Part shown: positions 6,783 to 42,708 of the stretch, in pieces
Numbering within the stretch: position 1 is the first letter of the stretch
Layout of the letters: each line of letters starts with the position of its first letter
Sequence record: PZ871099.1
Origin: a phage
Reading direction: 5' to 3' (one strand)
Length of the DNA stretch: 51,075 bases
The notes under the pieces: generated by a model
What the model was told of the DNA's origin: nothing
Database searches by the model: none
What the model saw: the letters and a program-made list of their open reading frames with translations, nothing else
Program-made: the position numbers and the translations under genes

Positions 6783-7754
6783 ATGGCTAAAAAATATGAT
6801 GAACTAGATGCTACGATTGTAGCGAATCATTTGCAGATTCAGGGTGTTAAGACCGACGCTTCTGATATGGGTATTTGGACCGCTCAAGAGCTACACAAGA
6901 TCCGCTCTACCGCATACGAGAAAGAGTATCCGGCAGGTTCCGCGCTTCGCGTATTCCCTGTAACAAACGAGCTTTCTGATACTGACAAGACTTTCGAATA
7001 TCAGACTTTTGATAAGGTTGGCTACGCGAAAATTATCGCCGACTACACCGATGATCTGCCGACTGTGGACGCGTTGATGACTTCTGAGTTTGGCAAAGTG
7101 TTCCGCCTGGGTAACGCTTATCTGATCTCCATTGATGAGATTAAAGCAGGTCAGCGAACTGGCAAGAGCCTGTCAACTCGCAAGGCTAACGCTGCGCAAA
7201 ATGCACATGATCAGTTGATTAACTTCCTGGTGTTCAAAGGTTCCAAGCCTCACAAGATCGTTTCCGTTTTCGATCATCCTAACCTTGCGAAAATTGTTTC
7301 TGAAGGCTGGATGAGCAAGGACGGCAATACCAAGTTCCCGGAAGTGGCAAGCGATGAACTGGAGGCCGCAATCGAAACGATCGAGGAAGTAACCAAAGGT
7401 CAGCACCGCGCGACCAACATCCTGATCCCGCCGTCCATGCGTAAAGTCCTAACGGTTCGAATGGAAAATACCACTGAAAGTTATCTGGAATACTTCCAGA
7501 AGCAAAACGGCGGTATCACTATCGACTCTATCGCAGAGCTTGAGGATATTGACGGCAAAGGTACGAAAGGTTGCTTGGTTTACGAAAAAGATCCAATGAA
7601 CATGAGCATTGAGATTCCAGAAGCGTTTAACATGCTTCCGGCGCAGCCAAAAGACCTGCATTTCAAAGTTCCTTGCACTTCCAAGTGTACTGGCCTTACG
7701 ATTTATCGTCCGTTTACGATGGTGCTTATTACTGGCTTGAAAAAGTCAGCTTAA
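6783..7754 (+). CDS. major capsid protein (putative)
   Basis: 323 aa, size and position typical of an HK97-fold capsid protein; strong RBS and terminator. Confidence 0.55.
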   Translation: MAKKYDELDATIVANHLQIQGVKTDASDMGIWTAQELHKIRSTAYEKEYPAGSALRVFPVTNELSDTDKTFEYQTFDKVGYAKIIADYTDDLPTVDALMTSEFGKVFRLGNAYLISIDEIKAGQRTGKSLSTRKANAAQNAHDQLINFLVFKGSKPHKIVSVFDHPNLAKIVSEGWMSKDGNTKFPEVASDELEAAIETIEEVTKGQHRATNILIPPSMRKVLTVRMENTTESYLEYFQKQNGGITIDSIAELEDIDGKGTKGCLVYEKDPMNMSIEIPEAFNMLPAQPKDLHFKVPCTSKCTGLTIYRPFTMVLITGLKKSA

Positions 7755-31314: not shown

Positions 31315-32040
31315 ATGGCTAAAGATATTTTAGATAAAGACACCCATGACGCATTCGTTAGCTTTGAGCAGTTGGAGAGAGAAACATTTATAGGGAATGC
31401 CCTTGCAACTGGAGGCCATTACCAGGCAGTAAAGCCAAATCAATATTATAAGGTAAGCGGCAACCGATACGCTGGAAGCACCACGCCGGACGTTGTGCGC
31501 GATATGTGGAGCACGCCTCAAGAGATTGTGGAGTGGATGGAATCAGAATTTGGTGAATACGATCTCGACGCGGCAGCAAGCCAGGAAAACGCAGTTTGCG
31601 AGAAGTTCTATAGCAAGAAAACAAACTGCTTAAAGCGTTGGTGGGGTAGCAACAAGCACGTATGGCTTAACCCGCCGTACATCAACCCAACTCCATTTAT
31701 CAAGAAAGCAATTGAGCAAATGGAGCACAACAACCAAATTGATGTTTTGTTGCCAGCCGACAACTCTACAGCATGGTTTTATGAGGCGCAGAAAAACGCG
31801 GCTGAAATCATCTGGATCACTGGTGAGGTTTACGAAGAGGGTGGAGTAGAATACTCCCGCACCGGAAGAATCGCCTTTGTGTCTGGATTGACTGGCGAGC
31901 CTGTACAGGGCAACAACAAGGGGAGCGTGATTTTTGTCATGCGAAAACTTAAAGAAGGCGAGGAGCAGAAAACGCGATACGTTAAGATCAGCGATATTTG
32001 CCCTTCTGTAACCGAACGCCGCGCGCGCAAACGGAGCTAA
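31315..32040 (+). CDS. dam: DNA N6-adenine methyltransferase (Dam-like)
   Basis: 241 aa; catalytic NPPY motif (HVWLNPPYINP). Confidence 0.8.
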   Translation: MAKDILDKDTHDAFVSFEQLERETFIGNALATGGHYQAVKPNQYYKVSGNRYAGSTTPDVVRDMWSTPQEIVEWMESEFGEYDLDAAASQENAVCEKFYSKKTNCLKRWWGSNKHVWLNPPYINPTPFIKKAIEQMEHNNQIDVLLPADNSTAWFYEAQKNAAEIIWITGEVYEEGGVEYSRTGRIAFVSGLTGEPVQGNNKGSVIFVMRKLKEGEEQKTRYVKISDICPSVTERRARKRS

Positions 32041-34850: not shown

Positions 34851-35242
34851 TGAAGAAATTTTTACTTACACCAATCGCAATGGCGGTGATCTTGTCTGGA
34901 TGTTCAAGCGTTACGCCACTGACAGGATTAATCGGCAGTAAGCCGGAAATCACAGCACAGGCTGGCGCGGAGAACGTGAAGCAGACAGTTGGCATTACAG
35001 CAAAGCAGGACGCCAGCACAAAACAGAAAACCACAATAAAGGAATCTGCGGTTGACAAGGTGGACACGTCCAGCAAGAAGGATTTCACAACATCAACCAT
35101 TCAGGCCAATACCATCAAGGCAGACAAAATTCAGGTCGTGCAGGGTAATAACGGCAGATGGTACGATCCAATAATCATATGCGTGGTTGTGTTAATTGTG
35201 CTGATTTGTCTTTACTGGAGGGAAAAGAAAAAGGAGGCTTAA
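34847..35242 (+). CDS. unimolecular spanin (T1 gp11-like)
   Basis: Lipobox LSGC plus C-terminal transmembrane helix [16 protein letters not shown]; ATGA overlap with endolysin stop. Confidence 0.6.
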
Positions 35243-35260
35243 TGCCTCCTTTATTTTTAT
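35232..35260 (+). terminator. rho-independent terminator after the spanin gene
   Basis: AGGAGGCttaatGCCTCCT plus T-rich. Confidence 0.7.
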
Positions 35261-35678: not shown

Positions 35679-36074
35679 TCATGTGATATTGAATTTACGG
35701 CGCAGTGCTTCAAGATCTTGTCTATTAGCTTTTGCCTGGAACAATTCATCATCGCCCATCTCCCCTATTCTAGCCATATCCCTGATCCAGTCGTTGCGCA
35801 TACCATCCAGGCTATACAATTCGAATCCGAAAGGCCGCTTTGACGATCCTTTGGACCAGTATTTACCGCATACCCCATCTATATAGCCAGCCGTCATCAT
35901 TCTTGCGCAAAATTCCTTAGATGCAAGGCTGGCGAACATTCGCGGCGTAAGTCCGGCGGCACGTGCGAGCCGCTCGCATTCTCTATGCTGATAGATAAAT
36001 TTGGCTATGTGCTGCCTGTTAAACCAGTCGTATGACTCACACCATTTATACAGATCAAGCAAAAACATAATCAT
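35679..36074 (-). CDS. hypothetical protein (translationally coupled to upstream ATPase)
   Basis: 131 aa, ATGA overlap with the stop of 36071..37651. Confidence 0.4.
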   Translation of the reverse strand: MIMFLLDLYKWCESYDWFNRQHIAKFIYQHRECERLARAAGLTPRMFASLASKEFCARMMTAGYIDGVCGKYWSKGSSKRPFGFELYSLDGMRNDWIRDMARIGEMGDDELFQAKANRQDLEALRRKFNIT

Positions 36075-37651
36075 CCCAGCAGTATTGGATTTACAAAAAT
36101 AACACCATTAATCACACAAACATAATTTCTCTCTTCCAGCATTGGCAGCAAGTGCCCTTCTATCCTCTTCATTACGCCAGCTTGACCAACGAAAGGTTTT
36201 ACCTTTCTCGCTGATTCGTACAGGGCGCGGATATTCAGAATCCCTTTATTAGCCTTGCCGTGTCTAGTGATCAATTCAATCAATTTACCCATTTCAGCAT
36301 CATCACCAGCATAACCAGAAGCATTGGCGGCGCTAATGTATGTTTTGCTCAATTCCTGAAACATGATCAGCGCCTCTTGCATTGTTTCCACGTCGATCTC
36401 TTTCGACTTCTGCGGGTATCCAGCAGGATTAAACCAGTTGCGGATAACATGCAGGACGGAAGCAAGCCTGATCACCTGTTTATCCATTTTACCCAGCGCA
36501 CCGCGTAACATTGTATGAGAATACTTTCCGCCGTCTGCAAGATGCGGTTCCATATCCTGGCGAGCAATGTTGAGCACTCGCATAGCTGAACGGCTTATTT
36601 TCAGCGATACATTTGATTCGCTCATGATGTTATGCACCAATTGATAATATTGGGCCTTCAATTCAGAATCCACCGCCTCATAGGTAGAATCACCATTTTC
36701 ATCAATGAATGAGCGACGGCCTAAGAATGATTCCTCGCGGACCAACAAAAAGCGCTCACTAACACCGATACCGCGCGATCCAGCGTCCATGATTCCGCTT
36801 ATCGTTTCATCCTGGGCTATAACGCTCATACATCCAAGCGCGCGAAAACTCATGTTATTGTCAGCATTAGCACGGGCAATTGATACGTGACCATTATCCC
36901 ACGCCTTAAGCACTAGCTCACTGTTAGTCTTCCTTTCGCTATTTGCATAGGTCAAGCCTAACAAACTGTTAATACTTGTTGCTTCGTCAGATATTACGGC
37001 AAAGTTACCTTGCTTGTTGTTGATTTTCGCCAGGCCTTCTGGAGTTGTATCTGAAACAGGGAAAGTTATATCACACATCTTTTCCAGCTTCTCCTCCAGA
37101 TCCTCTTTTTCCTGGTATAGAGATTCCATATCAGCGCCTGATCTTTCGCTTTTCATCTCCTTTGCAAGACCTGCCAACTTTGCCTGTATTTTCTTTCTTT
37201 CCTTGCGGCGTTGCTCGTTGATCTTCTCAACTTCCGCAATCATCGGAGCAATAGCCATACTGTTGATCGCAGATTTACCAGTTGACGGCGGCTGGCTTGT
37301 AACGACGTAAAGCGCAGTCGGCTGATCGGTCCCGTGATAGTCAACCGTAAAGCGTCCAAGCATGGCGGCAGAAATGCAGCCGATAAAGTGCATGTAAGCC
37401 GATGATTCAGGGAATTGAACGGATCGCGCAATACTGCGTGATAACTTTCCGACAACATCAATATCATTACCAAGAGAAATTACGGGGTAGCGATCGTGAC
37501 CGCTATTTACATCTTTCACTTCGCCCCAAAAGCTGGACGACTGGCGATAGCCGTTAGCCTGAATTGATACGCGAACTGGCGAAAGGTTCTGGCTTTCAGC
37601 CATAGCGATTATTTGCTGTGGAGTTAATTTGTTCGTTTCTAATGAAAACAT
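36071..37651 (-). CDS. P-loop NTPase of unknown function
   Basis: 526 aa; Walker A QPPSTGKSA, Walker B-like FAVISDEA; family not assignable by eye. Confidence 0.5.
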   Translation of the reverse strand: MFSLETNKLTPQQIIAMAESQNLSPVRVSIQANGYRQSSSFWGEVKDVNSGHDRYPVISLGNDIDVVGKLSRSIARSVQFPESSAYMHFIGCISAAMLGRFTVDYHGTDQPTALYVVTSQPPSTGKSAINSMAIAPMIAEVEKINEQRRKERKKIQAKLAGLAKEMKSERSGADMESLYQEKEDLEEKLEKMCDITFPVSDTTPEGLAKINNKQGNFAVISDEATSINSLLGLTYANSERKTNSELVLKAWDNGHVSIARANADNNMSFRALGCMSVIAQDETISGIMDAGSRGIGVSERFLLVREESFLGRRSFIDENGDSTYEAVDSELKAQYYQLVHNIMSESNVSLKISRSAMRVLNIARQDMEPHLADGGKYSHTMLRGALGKMDKQVIRLASVLHVIRNWFNPAGYPQKSKEIDVETMQEALIMFQELSKTYISAANASGYAGDDAEMGKLIELITRHGKANKGILNIRALYESARKVKPFVGQAGVMKRIEGHLLPMLEERNYVCVINGVIFVNPILLG

Positions 37652-37704: not shown

Positions 37705-37726
37705 TTTTGTCAAAAAGTGCTATTTG
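37705..37726 (-). promoter_or_regulatory. conserved intergenic motif copy (TTGACA variant)
   Basis: AAATAGCACTTTTTGACAAAAC, 22 nt, TAAAAT inside a hairpin; upstream of the ATPase gene. Confidence 0.6.
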
Positions 37727-37941
37727 ATCCGCTCTATTGCAACCAGAAGTCGATCAGGCTGGCGGTCGCTGTAGCATTCTCCTGTAATCCCATCCTTAAA
37801 CGTAAAGTAAAGCGCCTTATGATATGAAAAACCAATCAGCCAACCTACCGCCGTTTTTTTGATGGGCCTGACTATATCGCCAGGCTTGAAAGTCTTTGTG
37901 GTAGAATGCGTTACTTTGTAACGGTTTTCACTGTTTATCAC
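37720..37941 (-). CDS. hypothetical protein
   Basis: 73 aa. Confidence 0.3.
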   Translation of the reverse strand: MINSENRYKVTHSTTKTFKPGDIVRPIKKTAVGWLIGFSYHKALYFTFKDGITGECYSDRQPDRLLVAIERIK

Positions 37942-38324
37942 AGATATTTGCCCTCAAAAAGATAACAGCCGCCAGCAGAGAATCCGACCTCTTCACGGTA
38001 CAGGTTCCAGCGGTCGCCGCACTCATCAAAAACATAACCCGCAACGCTTCCAAGCGGTCGCCCTTTCTCGATCTGGTATCTCTTGCCCTGCTTAAAGTGC
38101 TTTTTGCACGGCATGTTATGATCTACAAACGTGCAAAGAACGGTTTTTGTGTTAATGGCGCGGTAATCATCTCGGTTTGCTGGAAGCCAGCGGCTACCCT
38201 TAACAAGCGTCTTAACCTGGAATTCTTCCACCTCGATCACATCATTACTTCCTGCAATCTTCTGATAAACCGTTTTAAAACGGCCTTTCATCAATACGTT
38301 GGTTTCATTACAGATAACATTCAT
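37938..38324 (-). CDS. hypothetical protein
   Basis: 128 aa; own motif copy, hairpin and CATAAT upstream. Confidence 0.35.
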   Translation of the reverse strand: MNVICNETNVLMKGRFKTVYQKIAGSNDVIEVEEFQVKTLVKGSRWLPANRDDYRAINTKTVLCTFVDHNMPCKKHFKQGKRYQIEKGRPLGSVAGYVFDECGDRWNLYREEVGFSAGGCYLFEGKYL

Positions 38325-38377: not shown

Positions 38378-38400
38378 CTTTTAACAAAAAGTGCTATTTT
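38378..38400 (-). promoter_or_regulatory. conserved intergenic motif copy
   Basis: Hairpin CCAGGTgtaaaaaCCTGG then CATAAT. Confidence 0.6.
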
Positions 38401-39110
38401 GAGTTTGACTCAAAGACGGCGCGAGCAAATCCGCGCGGAGTGAGGGAGCGGATCATCTTTGTGCGCGATGACTTGCCGCCAGTTTTGGCCCATCCTGGAT
38501 TATCTTTGTCTTCCTCTTTCGGCAGGATTAAAGCGCGCGGAGGAATAACAAAGCCGTTGCCAGTCCAGAGGCACGTTTTCTTAAAATAGCGATCCCGTGC
38601 CGGAATAATATCAGGGAAGTCGGGATGTTTATCATCTTCCGGCAGATAGCCAGCGTAATCGCACGGATGGAACGTATAATCAGGCTTTCGCCATAACGTT
38701 GACAACTTGCCAACCGGATTTTCGATCATGTAAGGAACACCGAAATAATCAGCTATATCAGCCGCGATTCTGCAAGTGTCGGCGGCCTCATCTTGGAACG
38801 ATGGATTCTCAAGGCGTTTTTTGGCCCAATGGCGAGATCCGCTATTTGCAAGGTCGGTGCATGGTGGGAAGGCCATAATAAAATCAGGATTGCCCCACTC
38901 ATTATTGATTGCCTTAACATAAAAAGCATCATCAATCCAGACGTTAACGTATTCGATATTCTCATGCTGTATGCGCACTGACTGGTAATCACCGTGATCG
39001 CCGCCGTCAGCATTAAAGCAAATGCACTTATAGCCATTATCAGCCCAATCTTTAACGGCCTTACCAGATCCATCAAATAGGGAGAATATTAAACCTTTAT
39101 ACATCGTCAT
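38394..39110 (-). CDS. compact DNA cytosine-C5 methyltransferase-like protein (putative)
   Basis: Motif I-like FSLFDGSG, motif IV-like AFPPCTD, motif VI-like IENPVG in the expected order; no obvious target recognition domain. Confidence 0.45.
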   Translation of the reverse strand: MTMYKGLIFSLFDGSGKAVKDWADNGYKCICFNADGGDHGDYQSVRIQHENIEYVNVWIDDAFYVKAINNEWGNPDFIMAFPPCTDLANSGSRHWAKKRLENPSFQDEAADTCRIAADIADYFGVPYMIENPVGKLSTLWRKPDYTFHPCDYAGYLPEDDKHPDFPDIIPARDRYFKKTCLWTGNGFVIPPRALILPKEEDKDNPGWAKTGGKSSRTKMIRSLTPRGFARAVFESNSK

Positions 39111-39114
39111 TACC

Positions 39115-39339
39115 TCAAAACGGAAAACAGCGCGCACAACCAGGATCGAAATCGCATCCACAATCATTAACAATCATAGTGGGATCTGCAAATATTGCGC
39201 TTGATTCAAGATCCATATCCATATCACCTAAAGCCTCATCAAGAGTCTTAATTTTATATGCCACTTCAAGCGCCGACTCTTTATTTAGTCCGGCATCTTC
39301 TGCCATTTGAAGGCGCTCAAAAAAACCGTCTTGACTCAT
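39115..39339 (-). CDS. hypothetical acidic protein with C-terminal Cys cluster
   Basis: 74 aa; CGCDFDPGCARC near the C-terminus. Confidence 0.3.
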   Translation of the reverse strand: MSQDGFFERLQMAEDAGLNKESALEVAYKIKTLDEALGDMDMDLESSAIFADPTMIVNDCGCDFDPGCARCFPF

Positions 39340-39450: not shown

Positions 39451-39494
39451 ATTTTCCACCTCATTTAAAAGGCGGCAAAACGCCGCCAGATTAA

Positions 39495-42680: not shown

Positions 42681-42708
42681 TTGACACGCACCAAATAGCT
42701 TTTATAAT
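42681..42708 (+). promoter_or_regulatory. canonical sigma70 promoter (TTGACA-16-TATAAT)
   Basis: Read directly; start of the plus-strand early cluster; track ATG at 42707 lies in the -10 box so the gene start is placed at 42740. Confidence 0.65.

What the first reader, a model, noticed from the sequence alone, without database searches (positions are those of the whole stretch)
38394..39110. Compact cytosine-C5 methyltransferase-like gene in the accessory cluster, in addition to Dam
The protein carries C5-methyltransferase motifs I, IV and VI in order, with a Pro-Cys catalytic dipeptide, but is only about 238 aa and lacks an obvious target recognition domain. Together with the Dam-like gene at 31315..32040 it would give the phage two DNA-modification activities, or it may act on a nucleotide or RNA substrate.
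Basis: partly seen in the sequence, partly recalled or inferred. Interest (0 to 1): 0.6.

Follow-up and report, generated by a model that had tools for sequence, protein, structure and literature searches.

The report
Known phage Dcm-like cytosine methyltransferase
This is a real but already described gene: a compact phage DNA cytosine-C5 methyltransferase whose 90%-identical twin in a sister phage puts 5-methylcytosine on DNA and sets off the bacterial retron Ec86/Eco1 defence.

Summary
A minus-strand ORF at 38394..39110 has motifs I (F12-D-G-S-G16), IV (P83-C84) and VI (E130-N131-P132) in order. The conserved start is more likely 39104, giving 236 aa. The window is a Warwickvirus-type T1-like coliphage (Drexlerviridae).

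The identical 236-aa protein is already in NCBI as phage tonijn "DNA methyltransferase". It is 90% identical to the "Dcm-like C5 cytosine methyltransferase" of phage KarlJaspers, in the same gene order.

A KarlJaspers-like phage, K42, was studied experimentally (Wang et al., bioRxiv 2023; Cell Rep 2024). Its Dcm raises m5C in retron msDNA and triggers retron Ec86. Escape phages lose the gene. The residues mutated there are C84, E130, K177 and K178 here.

It is small because about 36 aa stand where the 100-116-aa target recognition domain normally sits, and nothing follows the motif IX-like segment.

Dam at 31315..32040 is confirmed. The CCWGG specificity was assumed from E. coli Dcm, not mapped, and remains open.

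Verdict: already known, low interest.

The parts
38394..39104 (-). Dcm-like C5 cytosine DNA methyltransferase CDS. This is the likely true form: 236 aa, starting MYKGLIF, with stop TAG at 38394-38396.
   Evidence: ORF. The start is conserved in KarlJaspers. The exact 236-aa sequence equals tonijn YP_009901263.1. PHROG 757 matches at E 1e-85. It is 90% identical to KarlJaspers Dcm.
39105..39110 (-). Probably not translated.
   Evidence: This ATG lies only 2 nt after the GAGG. In KarlJaspers the equivalent upstream ATG is out of frame.
39113..39116 (-). Shine-Dalgarno GAGG, 8 nt upstream of the ATG at 39104. It overlaps the TGA stop (39115-39117) of the upstream 74-aa gene.
   Evidence: Sequence read. 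K42 escape mutants carry a point mutation 9 bp upstream of the dcm start. In KarlJaspers that position falls in this GAGG.
39063..39077 (-). Motif I, F12-D-G-S-G16 (FxGxG, AdoMet binding), following strand beta1.
   Evidence: D13, G14, S15 and G16 are invariant in 41 homologues. Strand 7-11 in the model.
38859..38864 (-). Motif IV, P83-C84, the catalytic Pro-Cys. C84 corresponds to C82 of K42 Dcm.
   Evidence: C84 is invariant in 66 diverse family members. The flexible loop 86-88 has pLDDT <50, as expected for a catalytic loop. C82A is part of the inactive K42 mutant.
38715..38723 (-). Motif VI, E130-N131-P132 (an ENV variant). E130 corresponds to E128 of K42 Dcm.
   Evidence: Invariant or nearly invariant. 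Falls in strand 127-132.
38574..38588 (-). Motif VIII position, Y175-F-K177-K178-T179, in place of the canonical QxRxR and leading into strand 179-184. K177/K178 correspond to K175/K176 of K42 Dcm.
   Evidence: Y175, K177 and T179 are invariant. Canonical QHRER (Dcm) and QKRER (HhaI) are seen. The register is my inference.
38451..38558 (-). Residues 185-220, the short segment that occupies the TRD slot. Residues 191-210 are the most variable part of the family. Residues 211-220 (GGKSSRTKMI) are conserved and basic.
   Evidence: Column entropy and segment lengths: 27-47 aa, median 36. pLDDT 67 for block 201-210.
38427..38450 (-). Motif IX-like segment, R221-S-L-T-P-R-G-F228. The protein ends 10 residues later, with no separate motif X (GN[SA]V).
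   Evidence: A statistically insignificant local BLASTP alignment places it against E. coli Dcm RRLTPRECAR. Dcm and HhaI motif X (FGNSVV) are seen.
31315..32040 (+). Dam-type N6-adenine DNA methyltransferase, the phage's other DNA-modification gene.
   Evidence: Pfam PF05869, E 3.6e-60. PHROG 111. Same position as the KarlJaspers 'Dam-like N6-adenine methyltransferase'.
36071..37651 (-). DUF3987 helicase, the conserved downstream neighbour in the same leftward gene cluster. Used as the synteny anchor.
   Evidence: PF13148, E 5e-44. PHROG 2373. 42 of 45 helicase-anchored IMG/VR loci carry the dcm-like gene about 750 bp upstream.
37720..38324 (-). Two small conserved genes of unknown function (73 aa and 128 aa) between dcm and the helicase.
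   Evidence: PHROG 12725 and 2684, no Pfam hit. Same order in KarlJaspers and FritzSarasin.
39115..39339 (-). Upstream 74-aa gene of unknown function whose stop overlaps the dcm Shine-Dalgarno, suggesting co-transcription.
   Evidence: PHROG 9323. Sequence.

Best explanation
The gene encodes an orphan, SAM-dependent DNA cytosine-C5 methyltransferase. It belongs to the compact phage 'Dcm-like' family (PHROG 757) and is the counterpart of the Dcm of phage K42/KarlJaspers.

Inferred mechanism, from the family chemistry:
- AdoMet is held by motif I (F12-x-G-x-G16) and the acidic/polar ends of strands beta2 and beta3.
- The target cytosine is flipped out. Cys84 attacks C6, Glu130 protonates N3, methyl is transferred to C5, and beta-elimination releases the enzyme.
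- DNA is gripped by the invariant Y175/K177/T179 segment and by the basic C-terminal stretch GGKSSRTKMIRSLTPRG.
- A roughly 36-residue variable loop stands in for the usual large target recognition domain.

Inferred biology:
- The gene sits in the leftward cluster of small genes upstream of the DUF3987 helicase.
- Together with the phage Dam, it would methylate replicating phage DNA, and host DNA as a by-product.
- The presumed benefit is protection from cytosine-sensitive restriction, probably at CCWGG.
- The reported cost is that the same activity methylates the stem-loop of retron Ec86/Eco1 msDNA and switches on that abortive-infection system.
For: Shown here:
- The ORF is conserved. PHROG 757 matches at E 1e-85. 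tblastn finds it in 1499 phage records, many annotated as a cytosine methylase.
- The exact protein equals the tonijn 'DNA methyltransferase', and KarlJaspers Dcm is in the same 90% cluster.
- It is 90% identical to KarlJaspers Dcm over 236 aa, with no gaps, in identical gene order.
- The AF2 model has pLDDT 88.4 and pTM 0.88, with seven strands in class I MTase order.
- C84 is invariant; E130, N131 and K177 are nearly so across 66 diverse members.

From the literature:
- All four K42 escapers of retron Ec86 have lesions in or just upstream of the 711-bp dcm gene.
- Dcm expression is toxic only when Ec86 is present.
- LC-MS shows raised m5C in msDNA with wild-type Dcm, but not with the C82A/E128A/K175A/K176A mutant. 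Those residues are C84, E130, K177 and K178 here.
- Changing the msDNA CCTGG abolishes defence.
- 34 of 35 Ec86-sensitive phages encode Dcm.

Circumstantial:
- CCWGG and GATC are not avoided in this genome (z -0.7 and +0.1), although many other palindromes are strongly avoided.
- A relative whose dcm-like gene is a pseudogene has 0 CCWGG where 26.5 are expected.
Against: - Pfam PF00145 and NCBIfam give no hit at E<=1. Only 6 of 66 family members touch PF00145, best E 0.0039.
- Profile comparison with E. coli Dcm is not significant.
- Motif VIII is YxKxT rather than QxRxR. No motif X is recognisable. The TRD slot is only about 36 aa.
- No methylation data exist for this phage's own DNA.
- The CCWGG specificity was taken over from E. 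coli Dcm in the K42 study, not mapped. The host used there, MG1655, is itself dcm+, yet the vector control showed low m5C. This leaves the true site or substrate preference open.
- The BASEL study found no simple link between methyltransferase genes and restriction resistance in Drexlerviridae.
- Some dcm-like+ phages are mildly CCWGG-depleted (z about -3.5).
Confidence: 0.85

Rival explanations
1. It is a DNA m5C methyltransferase, but its recognition site is not E. coli Dcm's CCWGG. With such a small recognition loop it could read a shorter or relaxed site, or prefer hairpin or single-stranded DNA such as the msDNA stem-loop.
For: - There is no sequence relationship to E. coli Dcm or its TRD.
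- The TRD slot is only 27-47 aa and is the most variable part of the family.
- The closest structures are DNMT3A/B, which read CpG with a small TRD.
- CCWGG was assumed, not mapped.
- The host dcm+ background did not give high msDNA m5C in the controls.
- Some dcm-like+ phages show CCWGG depletion (L087, L101, L129).
Against: - All three msDNA CCTGG mutants (AATGG, ACTGG, CATGG) lost defence.
- CCWGG is never avoided in the 42 helicase-anchored dcm+ relatives, O/E 0.82-1.37.
- The relative with a decayed gene has zero CCWGG.
- T1 and Rtp, which lack the gene, are mildly CCWGG-depleted.
Confidence: 0.3
2. It acts on RNA or a free nucleotide rather than DNA, like DNMT2 on tRNA.
For: - The best profile hit to a solved C5-MTase by sequence is DNMT2, at an insignificant E 0.37.
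- The protein has no large DNA-reading domain.
Against: - The K42 protein raises m5C in purified msDNA, and its effect depends on a DNA sequence motif in the DNA stem-loop.
- Nucleotide-level C5 modification in phages normally uses thymidylate-synthase-fold enzymes, not this fold (established knowledge).
Confidence: 0.03
3. It transfers a group other than methyl, for example carboxymethyl from Cx-SAM, like the phage enzyme CmoX. That would start a hypermodification pathway.
For: - E. coli makes Cx-SAM through its own CmoA, and that can feed a heterologous CmoX.
Against: - LC-MS of the K42 orthologue's product matched a 5mC standard.
- CmoX systems come with phage cmoA and a ligase cmoY. None is among the neighbours here, and none is annotated in KarlJaspers.
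- CmoX is a full-size, 333-372-aa HhaI-like enzyme.
Confidence: 0.03
4. It is an active DNA m5C methyltransferase, but anti-restriction is not its main selective role. It might instead tune phage or host gene expression, replication or packaging, or counter a defence other than classical restriction-modification.
For: - BASEL found no pattern linking methyltransferase genes to restriction resistance. Most Drexlerviridae remain very restriction-sensitive.
- Laboratory K-12 hosts already methylate CCWGG.
- The genome still avoids many palindromes heavily, so methylation is not its general answer to restriction.
Against: - The gene is kept in 42 of 45 related loci despite being a retron trigger, which implies a real benefit.
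- Protection of one site class is the simplest benefit. E. coli B-type hosts lack Dcm (established knowledge).
- The pseudogene/zero-CCWGG relative fits site protection.
Confidence: 0.15

Closest known systems
Dcm of Escherichia phage K42 / KarlJaspers (Bas06, QXV82308.1), the published trigger of retron Ec86/Eco1 (Wang et al., bioRxiv 10.1101/2023.08.16.553469; Cell Rep 2024;43:114857)
   Same: - 90% identity over all 236 residues with no gaps, and the same 90% cluster.
- Same length, same start context and same neighbours.
- The mutated residues C82, E128, K175 and K176 are all conserved.
   Different: - 24 substitutions, mostly in residues 33-75.
- The host phage is in a different genus (Warwickvirus versus Hanrivervirus).
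- Nothing has been measured for this particular allele.
E. coli Dcm (M.EcoKDcm, 472 aa, CCWGG) and other EcoRII-type methyltransferases
   Same: - Same enzyme class and chemistry.
- Motifs I, IV, VI and a motif IX-like RxLTPR are present.
- Presumed same target site.
   Different: - No significant sequence similarity (BLASTP E 2; hhalign probability 0.3%).
- Half the size, with 36 aa in place of a 116-aa TRD.
- YxKxT instead of QxRxR, and no motif X.
- No adjacent vsr gene.
- The name 'Dcm-like' is an analogy, not orthology.
Catalytic domain of mammalian DNMT3A/DNMT3B
   Same: - The only weak sequence hit in the PDB, E 0.6 over motifs I-IV.
- Both have unusually small recognition loops.
   Different: - 13-18% identity and TM only about 0.5.
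- DNMT3 enzymes work as oligomers with regulatory domains and read CpG.
- The resemblance may simply reflect that both are minimal versions of the fold.
M.HhaI and typical bacterial type II C5 methyltransferases (Pfam PF00145)
   Same: - Class I methyltransferase fold with the same strand order.
- Comparable spacing of motifs I, IV, VI and VIII: 72, 46 and 45 residues here, against about 63, 38 and 42 in HhaI.
   Different: - Below Pfam detection.
- The TRD slot is about 36 aa against about 100 aa.
- The protein ends just after the motif IX-like segment.
- No partner restriction enzyme.
CmoX, the phage DNA cytosine C5-carboxymethyltransferase (PDB 8yf3)
   Different: - CmoX is full size and HhaI-like.
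- It uses Cx-SAM through a key Arg.
- It is encoded next to cmoA and cmoY, none of which is seen here.

Membership tests
DNA cytosine-C5 methyltransferases (class I AdoMet MTases, Pfam PF00145) | Motif I FxGxG (AdoMet binding) after strand beta1 | tested here: met
   F12-D-G-S-G16 is present. D13, G14, S15 and G16 are invariant in 41 homologues. Strand 7-11 in the model.
DNA cytosine-C5 methyltransferases (class I AdoMet MTases, Pfam PF00145) | Motif IV catalytic Pro-Cys | tested here: met
   P83-C84 is present. C84 is invariant in 66 diverse members.
DNA cytosine-C5 methyltransferases (class I AdoMet MTases, Pfam PF00145) | Motif VI ENV with the catalytic Glu | tested here: met
   E130-N131-P132 is present, with Pro in place of Val. 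P132 is invariant; E130 and N131 are conserved in at least 90%.
DNA cytosine-C5 methyltransferases (class I AdoMet MTases, Pfam PF00145) | Motif VIII QxRxR | tested here: not met
   The position before strand 179-184 reads Y175-x-K177-x-T179, invariant in the close family. E. coli Dcm has QHRER and HhaI has QKRER. The register is inferred, not superposed.
DNA cytosine-C5 methyltransferases (class I AdoMet MTases, Pfam PF00145) | Motifs IX (RxxTxRE) and X (GN[SA]V) at the C-terminus | tested here: inconclusive
   R221-S-L-T-P-R-G-F resembles motif IX of Dcm (RRLTPRECAR), on the basis of an insignificant local alignment. No GN[SA]V follows, and the protein ends 10 residues later.
DNA cytosine-C5 methyltransferases (class I AdoMet MTases, Pfam PF00145) | Sizeable target recognition domain between motifs VIII and IX | tested here: not met
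   36 residues here, and 27-47 across the family. The gap is 116 residues in E. coli Dcm and about 100 in HhaI.
DNA cytosine-C5 methyltransferases (class I AdoMet MTases, Pfam PF00145) | Score above the PF00145 gathering threshold | tested here: not met
   No hit at E<=1 for this protein. 6 of 66 family members hit weakly, best E 0.0039.
DNA cytosine-C5 methyltransferases (class I AdoMet MTases, Pfam PF00145) | C5-MTase three-dimensional fold | tested here: met
   [not shown]
DNA cytosine-C5 methyltransferases (class I AdoMet MTases, Pfam PF00145) | AdoMet-dependent formation of 5-methylcytosine in DNA | not testable with these tools
   Reported for K42 Dcm (the KarlJaspers counterpart is 90% identical to this protein) by LC-MS of msDNA, and lost in the C82A/E128A/K175A/K176A mutant.
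Phage Dcm-like methyltransferases that trigger retron Ec86/Eco1 (K42/KarlJaspers Dcm; PHROG 757) | Close sequence relationship to the characterised protein | tested here: met
   90% identity over 236 aa. Same 90% cluster. PHROG 757 at E 1e-85.
Phage Dcm-like methyltransferases that trigger retron Ec86/Eco1 (K42/KarlJaspers Dcm; PHROG 757) | Conservation of the residues whose mutation abolishes activity (C82, E128, K175, K176) | tested here: met
   C84, E130, K177 and K178 are identical in the pairwise alignment.
Phage Dcm-like methyltransferases that trigger retron Ec86/Eco1 (K42/KarlJaspers Dcm; PHROG 757) | Same genomic position: 74-aa gene, dcm, 128-aa gene, 73-aa gene, DUF3987 helicase | tested here: met
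   Window ORFs compared with KarlJaspers bas06_0052-0056 and FritzSarasin. 42 of 45 helicase-anchored loci show it.
Phage Dcm-like methyltransferases that trigger retron Ec86/Eco1 (K42/KarlJaspers Dcm; PHROG 757) | Activation of retron Ec86/Eco1 by msDNA methylation | not testable with these tools
   Predicted from the 90% identity. Not measured for this allele.
E. coli Dcm / EcoRII-type CCWGG methyltransferases | Sequence homology including the CCWGG-reading TRD | tested here: not met
   BLASTP E 2. hhalign probability 0.3%.
E. coli Dcm / EcoRII-type CCWGG methyltransferases | Methylation of the inner C of CCWGG | tested here: inconclusive
   Only composition could be examined.
- CCWGG is not avoided here: 125 observed against 131 expected.
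- It is not avoided in the 42 dcm+ relatives.
- It is absent in the pseudogene relative L051.
- It is mildly depleted in some other dcm-like+ phages.
- The literature assumed the site.
E. coli Dcm / EcoRII-type CCWGG methyltransferases | Linked vsr very-short-patch repair gene | tested here: not met
   dcm overlaps vsr in K-12. The window's neighbouring genes have no Pfam match at all.
CmoX-type cytosine C5-carboxymethyltransferases | Phage-encoded cmoA (Cx-SAM synthase) and cmoY ligase nearby | tested here: not met
   The neighbours are small unknown proteins and a helicase. None is annotated in KarlJaspers. The system is described. I did not scan the whole window for cmoA.

The most novel reading that the evidence does not exclude
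The 'Dcm-like' label may be hiding a distinct, minimal clade of C5 methyltransferases. Its features:
- About 210-260 aa and invisible to PF00145.
- YxKxT in place of QxRxR, and no motif X.
- A roughly 36-aa variable loop in place of the TRD.
- Structurally nearest to DNMT3.

Its real specificity has never been mapped. It might be relaxed, non-CCWGG, or structure-dependent (hairpin or single-stranded DNA). That would explain why it methylates retron msDNA that host Dcm in MG1655 apparently leaves largely unmethylated.
Probability: 0.25. Interest if true: 0.5.

Novelty: already known. Interest (0 to 1): 0.2.

Why it matters
- For this window it settles the annotation. The phage carries two orphan DNA methyltransferases, Dam and a Dcm-like enzyme.
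- It gives one concrete, testable prediction: like its close relatives, this phage should be sensed and aborted by retron Ec86/Eco1 through this gene.
- The family is very common. It appears in about 1500 phage records across Escherichia, Klebsiella, Salmonella, Shigella and Vibrio phages, and is near-universal in this branch of Drexlerviridae. Yet Pfam and NCBIfam miss it.
- Its recognition site and the structural basis of DNA reading without a normal TRD are still not established.
- These open points matter for phage-therapy host-range prediction and for understanding how retrons sense phages. They are open questions about a known protein, not a new discovery in this window.

Tried and rejected
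1. **Sequence-profile route.** Pfam, NCBIfam and a family profile against PDB sequences gave nothing significant. hhalign against E. coli Dcm was also not significant. Only structure comparison worked.

2. **CCSGG avoidance as a clue to specificity.** CCSGG is strongly avoided in the window (4 observed against 20 expected) and in KarlJaspers, but enriched in T1, which lacks the gene. I tested whether this reports on the enzyme's specificity. It does not. Among 42 dcm+ relatives the avoidance is bimodal (O/E 0-0.4 or 0.95-1.9). Phages with nearly identical Dcm recognition loops fall on both sides: L016, L029 and L032 against L025 and L028. It is a separate trait.

3. **Inferring CCWGG specificity from site composition.** Inconclusive. 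Most dcm-like+ loci sit near O/E 1, which is also the default expectation. A few are depleted. Only the single pseudogene case is suggestive.

   - The afdb50 fold library was not available.
   - The diverse alignment A2 had no stretch conserved enough for a locus scan, so I used A1 instead.
   - The published Cell Reports version and the Rtp genome paper are not in the held library. Experimental claims therefore rest on the 2023 preprint and on how later papers summarise it.

5. **Literature search for mapped methylation.** I looked for mapped methylation motifs of this family in T1-like or Klebsiella phages and found none.

6. **Longer ORF form.** The 259-aa TTG-started ORF is annotated at 257 aa in several records. 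I rejected it because the N-terminal extension is not conserved and overlaps the upstream gene.
Full report
**1. What is at the coordinates**

The span 38394..39110 is an open reading frame on the minus strand. It runs from ATG to TAG and encodes 238 aa. A longer TTG-started version reaches 39173.

- Motif I, F12-D-G-S-G16.
- Motif IV, P83-C84. I read 38859..38864 directly as CCA TGC.
- Motif VI, E130-N131-P132. I read 38715..38723 as GAA AAT CCG.

The start codon needs a small correction:
- On the coding strand the upstream sequence reads TTTTGAGGTAATGACGATGTAT.
- The GAGG at 39113..39116 lies 8 nt before the second ATG (39104), but only 2 nt before the first (39110).
- In phage KarlJaspers the equivalent upstream ATG is out of frame, so only the MYKGLIF start works.
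- The likely CDS is therefore 38394..39104, 236 aa.
- The TGA stop of the upstream 74-aa gene overlaps the Shine-Dalgarno, which suggests co-transcription.

**2. Where the window comes from, and whether the gene is known**

- The window is a T1-like siphovirus of the Drexlerviridae (Tempevirinae, Warwickvirus). It is 97-98% identical over 25 kb to phages such as tonijn, vB_Eco-B1.2 and Poky.
- The gene is 98-99% identical at the DNA level to genes annotated 'DNA methyltransferase', 'dcm: DNA-cytosine methylase' or 'Dcm-like C5 cytosine methyltransferase' in dozens of records.
- The exact 236-aa sequence is tonijn YP_009901263.1.
- tblastn finds the family in 1499 phage records from Escherichia, Klebsiella, Salmonella, Shigella, Vibrio and other hosts.
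- An exhaustive HMMER search finds 1194 clusters at 50% identity, nearly all 210-260 aa. PHROG 757 matches at E 1e-85.

**3. Is it really a C5 methyltransferase?**

Sequence profiles do not show it:
- Pfam and NCBIfam give no hit at E<=1.
- Only 6 of 66 diverse family members touch PF00145 weakly.
- The best PDB sequence hit is DNMT3B at E 0.6.
- Comparison with E. coli Dcm is not significant.

Structure does show it:
- An AlphaFold2 model built from 41 homologues has pLDDT 88.4 and pTM 0.88. It has seven strands in class I methyltransferase order, and its only very-low-confidence segment is residues 86-88, just after the Pro-Cys, as expected for a mobile catalytic loop.
- Foldseek agrees, with DNMT3B/3A at E 5e-8.
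- The viral structure library returns family members and other phage cytosine methylases.

**4. Why it is small**

The catalytic core has normal motif spacing. Values for Dcm and HhaI are counted.

| Interval | This protein | E. coli Dcm | M.HhaI |
|---|---|---|---|
| Motif I to IV | 72 | about 85 | about 63 |
| Motif IV to VI | 46 | about 48 | about 38 |
| Motif VI to VIII | 45 | about 50 | about 42 |
| Motif VIII strand to RxLTPR (TRD slot) | 36 | 116 | about 100 |

The missing mass lies in two places:
- **The TRD slot.** Only 36 residues separate the motif VIII strand from the motif IX-like R221-S-L-T-P-R. Across the family this gap is 27-47 residues. Within it, residues 191-210 are the most variable part of the family, and residues 211-230 are among the most conserved.
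- **The C-terminus.** The protein ends 10 residues after the motif IX-like segment. No GN[SA]V motif X follows.

The motif VIII position reads Y175-x-K177-x-T179, invariant in close relatives, instead of QxRxR. I inferred this register from sequence and could not confirm it by superposition.

**5. What is known experimentally**

The key source is the preprint by Wang et al. (bioRxiv 10.1101/2023.08.16.553469), published as Cell Rep 2024;43:114857 (reference seen). It studied phage K42, a KarlJaspers-like Drexlerviridae phage. Its findings:
- All four escapers of retron Ec86 had lesions in or just upstream of a 711-bp dcm gene. Two had a point mutation 9 bp upstream of the start, which in KarlJaspers falls in the GAGG I identify as the Shine-Dalgarno.
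- Dcm expression was toxic only in the presence of the retron.
- LC-MS showed raised m5C in msDNA with wild-type Dcm, but not with a C82A/E128A/K175A/K176A mutant.
- Mutating the CCTGG in the msDNA stem-loop abolished defence.
- 34 of 35 Ec86-sensitive phages encoded Dcm.

Later papers restate this as accepted.

The link to the window protein is direct:
- I fetched KarlJaspers. Its Dcm is 90% identical to the window protein over 236 residues, without gaps.
- The four mutated residues correspond to C84, E130, K177 and K178 here.
- The gene order is the same: 74-aa gene, dcm, 128-aa gene, 73-aa gene, DUF3987 helicase.

The BASEL paper already named these genes. It noted that no simple pattern links them to restriction resistance.

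**6. Best explanation and what remains open**

The gene encodes an orphan, AdoMet-dependent DNA m5C methyltransferase. With the Dam-type enzyme at 31315..32040 (PF05869, E 3.6e-60), it gives the phage two DNA methylation activities. Its known liability is that it triggers retron Ec86/Eco1.

What each part of this rests on:
- The catalytic mechanism, with Cys84 as nucleophile and Glu130 as proton donor, is inferred from the family.
- The anti-restriction benefit is inferred.
- The CCWGG specificity is the weakest link. The K42 study took it from E. coli Dcm, a protein with which this one shares no detectable sequence similarity. The host used there, MG1655, is itself dcm+, yet the control msDNA had low m5C.

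**7. An attempt to get at specificity from composition**

- The window avoids many palindromes strongly: TCCGGA 0 observed against 20 expected, AAGCTT 0 against 16, GATATC 0 against 14, and GGCC, AGCT, CATG and CTAG at z about -4.5. GATC (z +0.1) and CCWGG (z -0.7) are not avoided. CCSGG is (4 against 20, z -4.2).
- T1, which has Dam but no dcm-like gene (best tblastn E 0.41), shows the opposite CCSGG pattern and mild CCWGG depletion.
- I fetched 45 helicase-anchored relatives. 42 carry the gene. In those, CCWGG is never avoided (O/E 0.82-1.37).
- CCSGG avoidance in the same set is bimodal and independent of the Dcm recognition-loop sequence, so it is an unrelated trait.
- One relative, L051, has a decayed dcm-like gene: in-frame stops, two frameshifts and PPC changed to PDC. 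It has no CCWGG at all in 21 kb, where 26.5 are expected. That fits CCWGG being the protected site.
- In a wider set of 46 dcm-like+ loci, most sit at O/E about 1, but a few are depleted at z about -3.5.
- Overall this is suggestive but not decisive.

**8. Rivals**

- **RNA or nucleotide substrate.** DNMT2 ranks below the DNA enzymes, and the literature effect is on DNA. I give it about 3%.
- **CmoX-like carboxymethyl transfer.** CmoX is a close structural neighbour, but the reported product matched 5mC and no cmoA/cmoY partners are present. About 3%.
- **A DNA m5C methyltransferase with a site other than CCWGG.** This is the only serious alternative, at about 30%. It is a refinement of the main explanation rather than a contradiction.

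**9. Verdict**

Novelty: already known. Interest: 0.2. What interest remains lies in the unmapped specificity and the unusual minimal architecture of the family.

Noticed in passing
whole window; e.g. CCSGG sites only at 7337, 22351, 32323, 35536: The genome shows strong palindrome avoidance: TCCGGA 0 observed against 20 expected, AAGCTT 0 against 16, GATATC 0 against 14, GCCGGC 0 against 11, ATGCAT 0 against 11, and CCSGG 4 against 20. The Dam and Dcm sites GATC and CCWGG are at expectation. Among 42 related dcm+ loci, CCSGG avoidance is bimodal (O/E 0-0.4 or 0.95-1.9) and does not follow the Dcm sequence. This points to a separate selective pressure, such as a CCSGG-cutting host enzyme.
   Followed up: partly
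L051:11806-12586 (minus strand; IMGVR_UViG_2974632794_000001): A related phage carries a decayed dcm-like gene, with in-frame stops, two frameshifts and PPC changed to PDC. Its 21-kb locus contains no CCWGG where 26.5 are expected (z -6.6).
   Followed up: partly
L006 (phage T1, NC_005833) and L036 (46,219-bp contig IMGVR_UViG_638275560_000001; I take it to be phage Rtp from its length alone, not checked): T1, the type phage, has Dam but no dcm-like gene. L036 also lacks it. Both are mildly CCWGG-depleted (O/E 0.83 and 0.63) and strongly GATC-depleted (z -5.2 and -6.7), T1 despite having Dam.
   Followed up: partly
L087, L089, L097, L101, L103, L109, L129: A group of loci, six of the seven from contigs of 35-45 kb (L129 is a 9.6-kb contig), carries the dcm-like gene and has almost no GATC (3-10 observed against about 38-74 expected, z -7 to -11). 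Several also show mild CCWGG depletion.
   Followed up: no
proteins P0239, P0199, P0217, P0227; BFVD A0A6J5SE15 and A0A6J5NPY6: The compact Dcm-like domain also occurs in fusions. One is joined to a C-terminal DPPY-type adenine methyltransferase (P0239, 563 aa). Others sit behind long low-complexity N-terminal extensions of 170-200 aa that look eukaryote-like. It also occurs inside 1100-1400-aa helicase-containing phage proteins.
   Followed up: no
window 38577..38712 (residues 133-178 of the methyltransferase): The stretch between motifs VI and VIII (consensus WRKPD..F.P..YGGYLPEDD.HP.FP..IPARDAY.K) is among the best-conserved parts of the family. The model shows only short helices in it rather than a long one. 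Its role is unknown.
   Followed up: no
window 42681..42708 (+): There is a perfect sigma-70 consensus promoter (TTGACA, 16 nt, TATAAT; 12 of 12 matches) on the plus strand, at the boundary where the leftward small-gene cluster containing dcm ends.
   Followed up: no
window 39471..39487 (-) and 35230..35252 (both strands): A GC-rich terminator-like hairpin (GGCGGCGTTTTGCCGCC followed by TTTT) lies on the minus strand, two genes upstream of dcm. A two-way terminator-like hairpin lies at the end of the lysis genes.
   Followed up: no
window 38394..39173 and public records: Public records annotate the same gene with three different starts, giving 236, 238 and 257 aa. The 257-aa form overlaps the upstream gene by about 50 nt, and its extension is not conserved.
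   Followed up: yes
L007 / L052 (IMGVR_UViG_3300045988_032316, 51,944 bp): This IMG/VR contig has 100% identical helicase and methyltransferase genes. It is probably the window's source or a near-clone.
   Followed up: no
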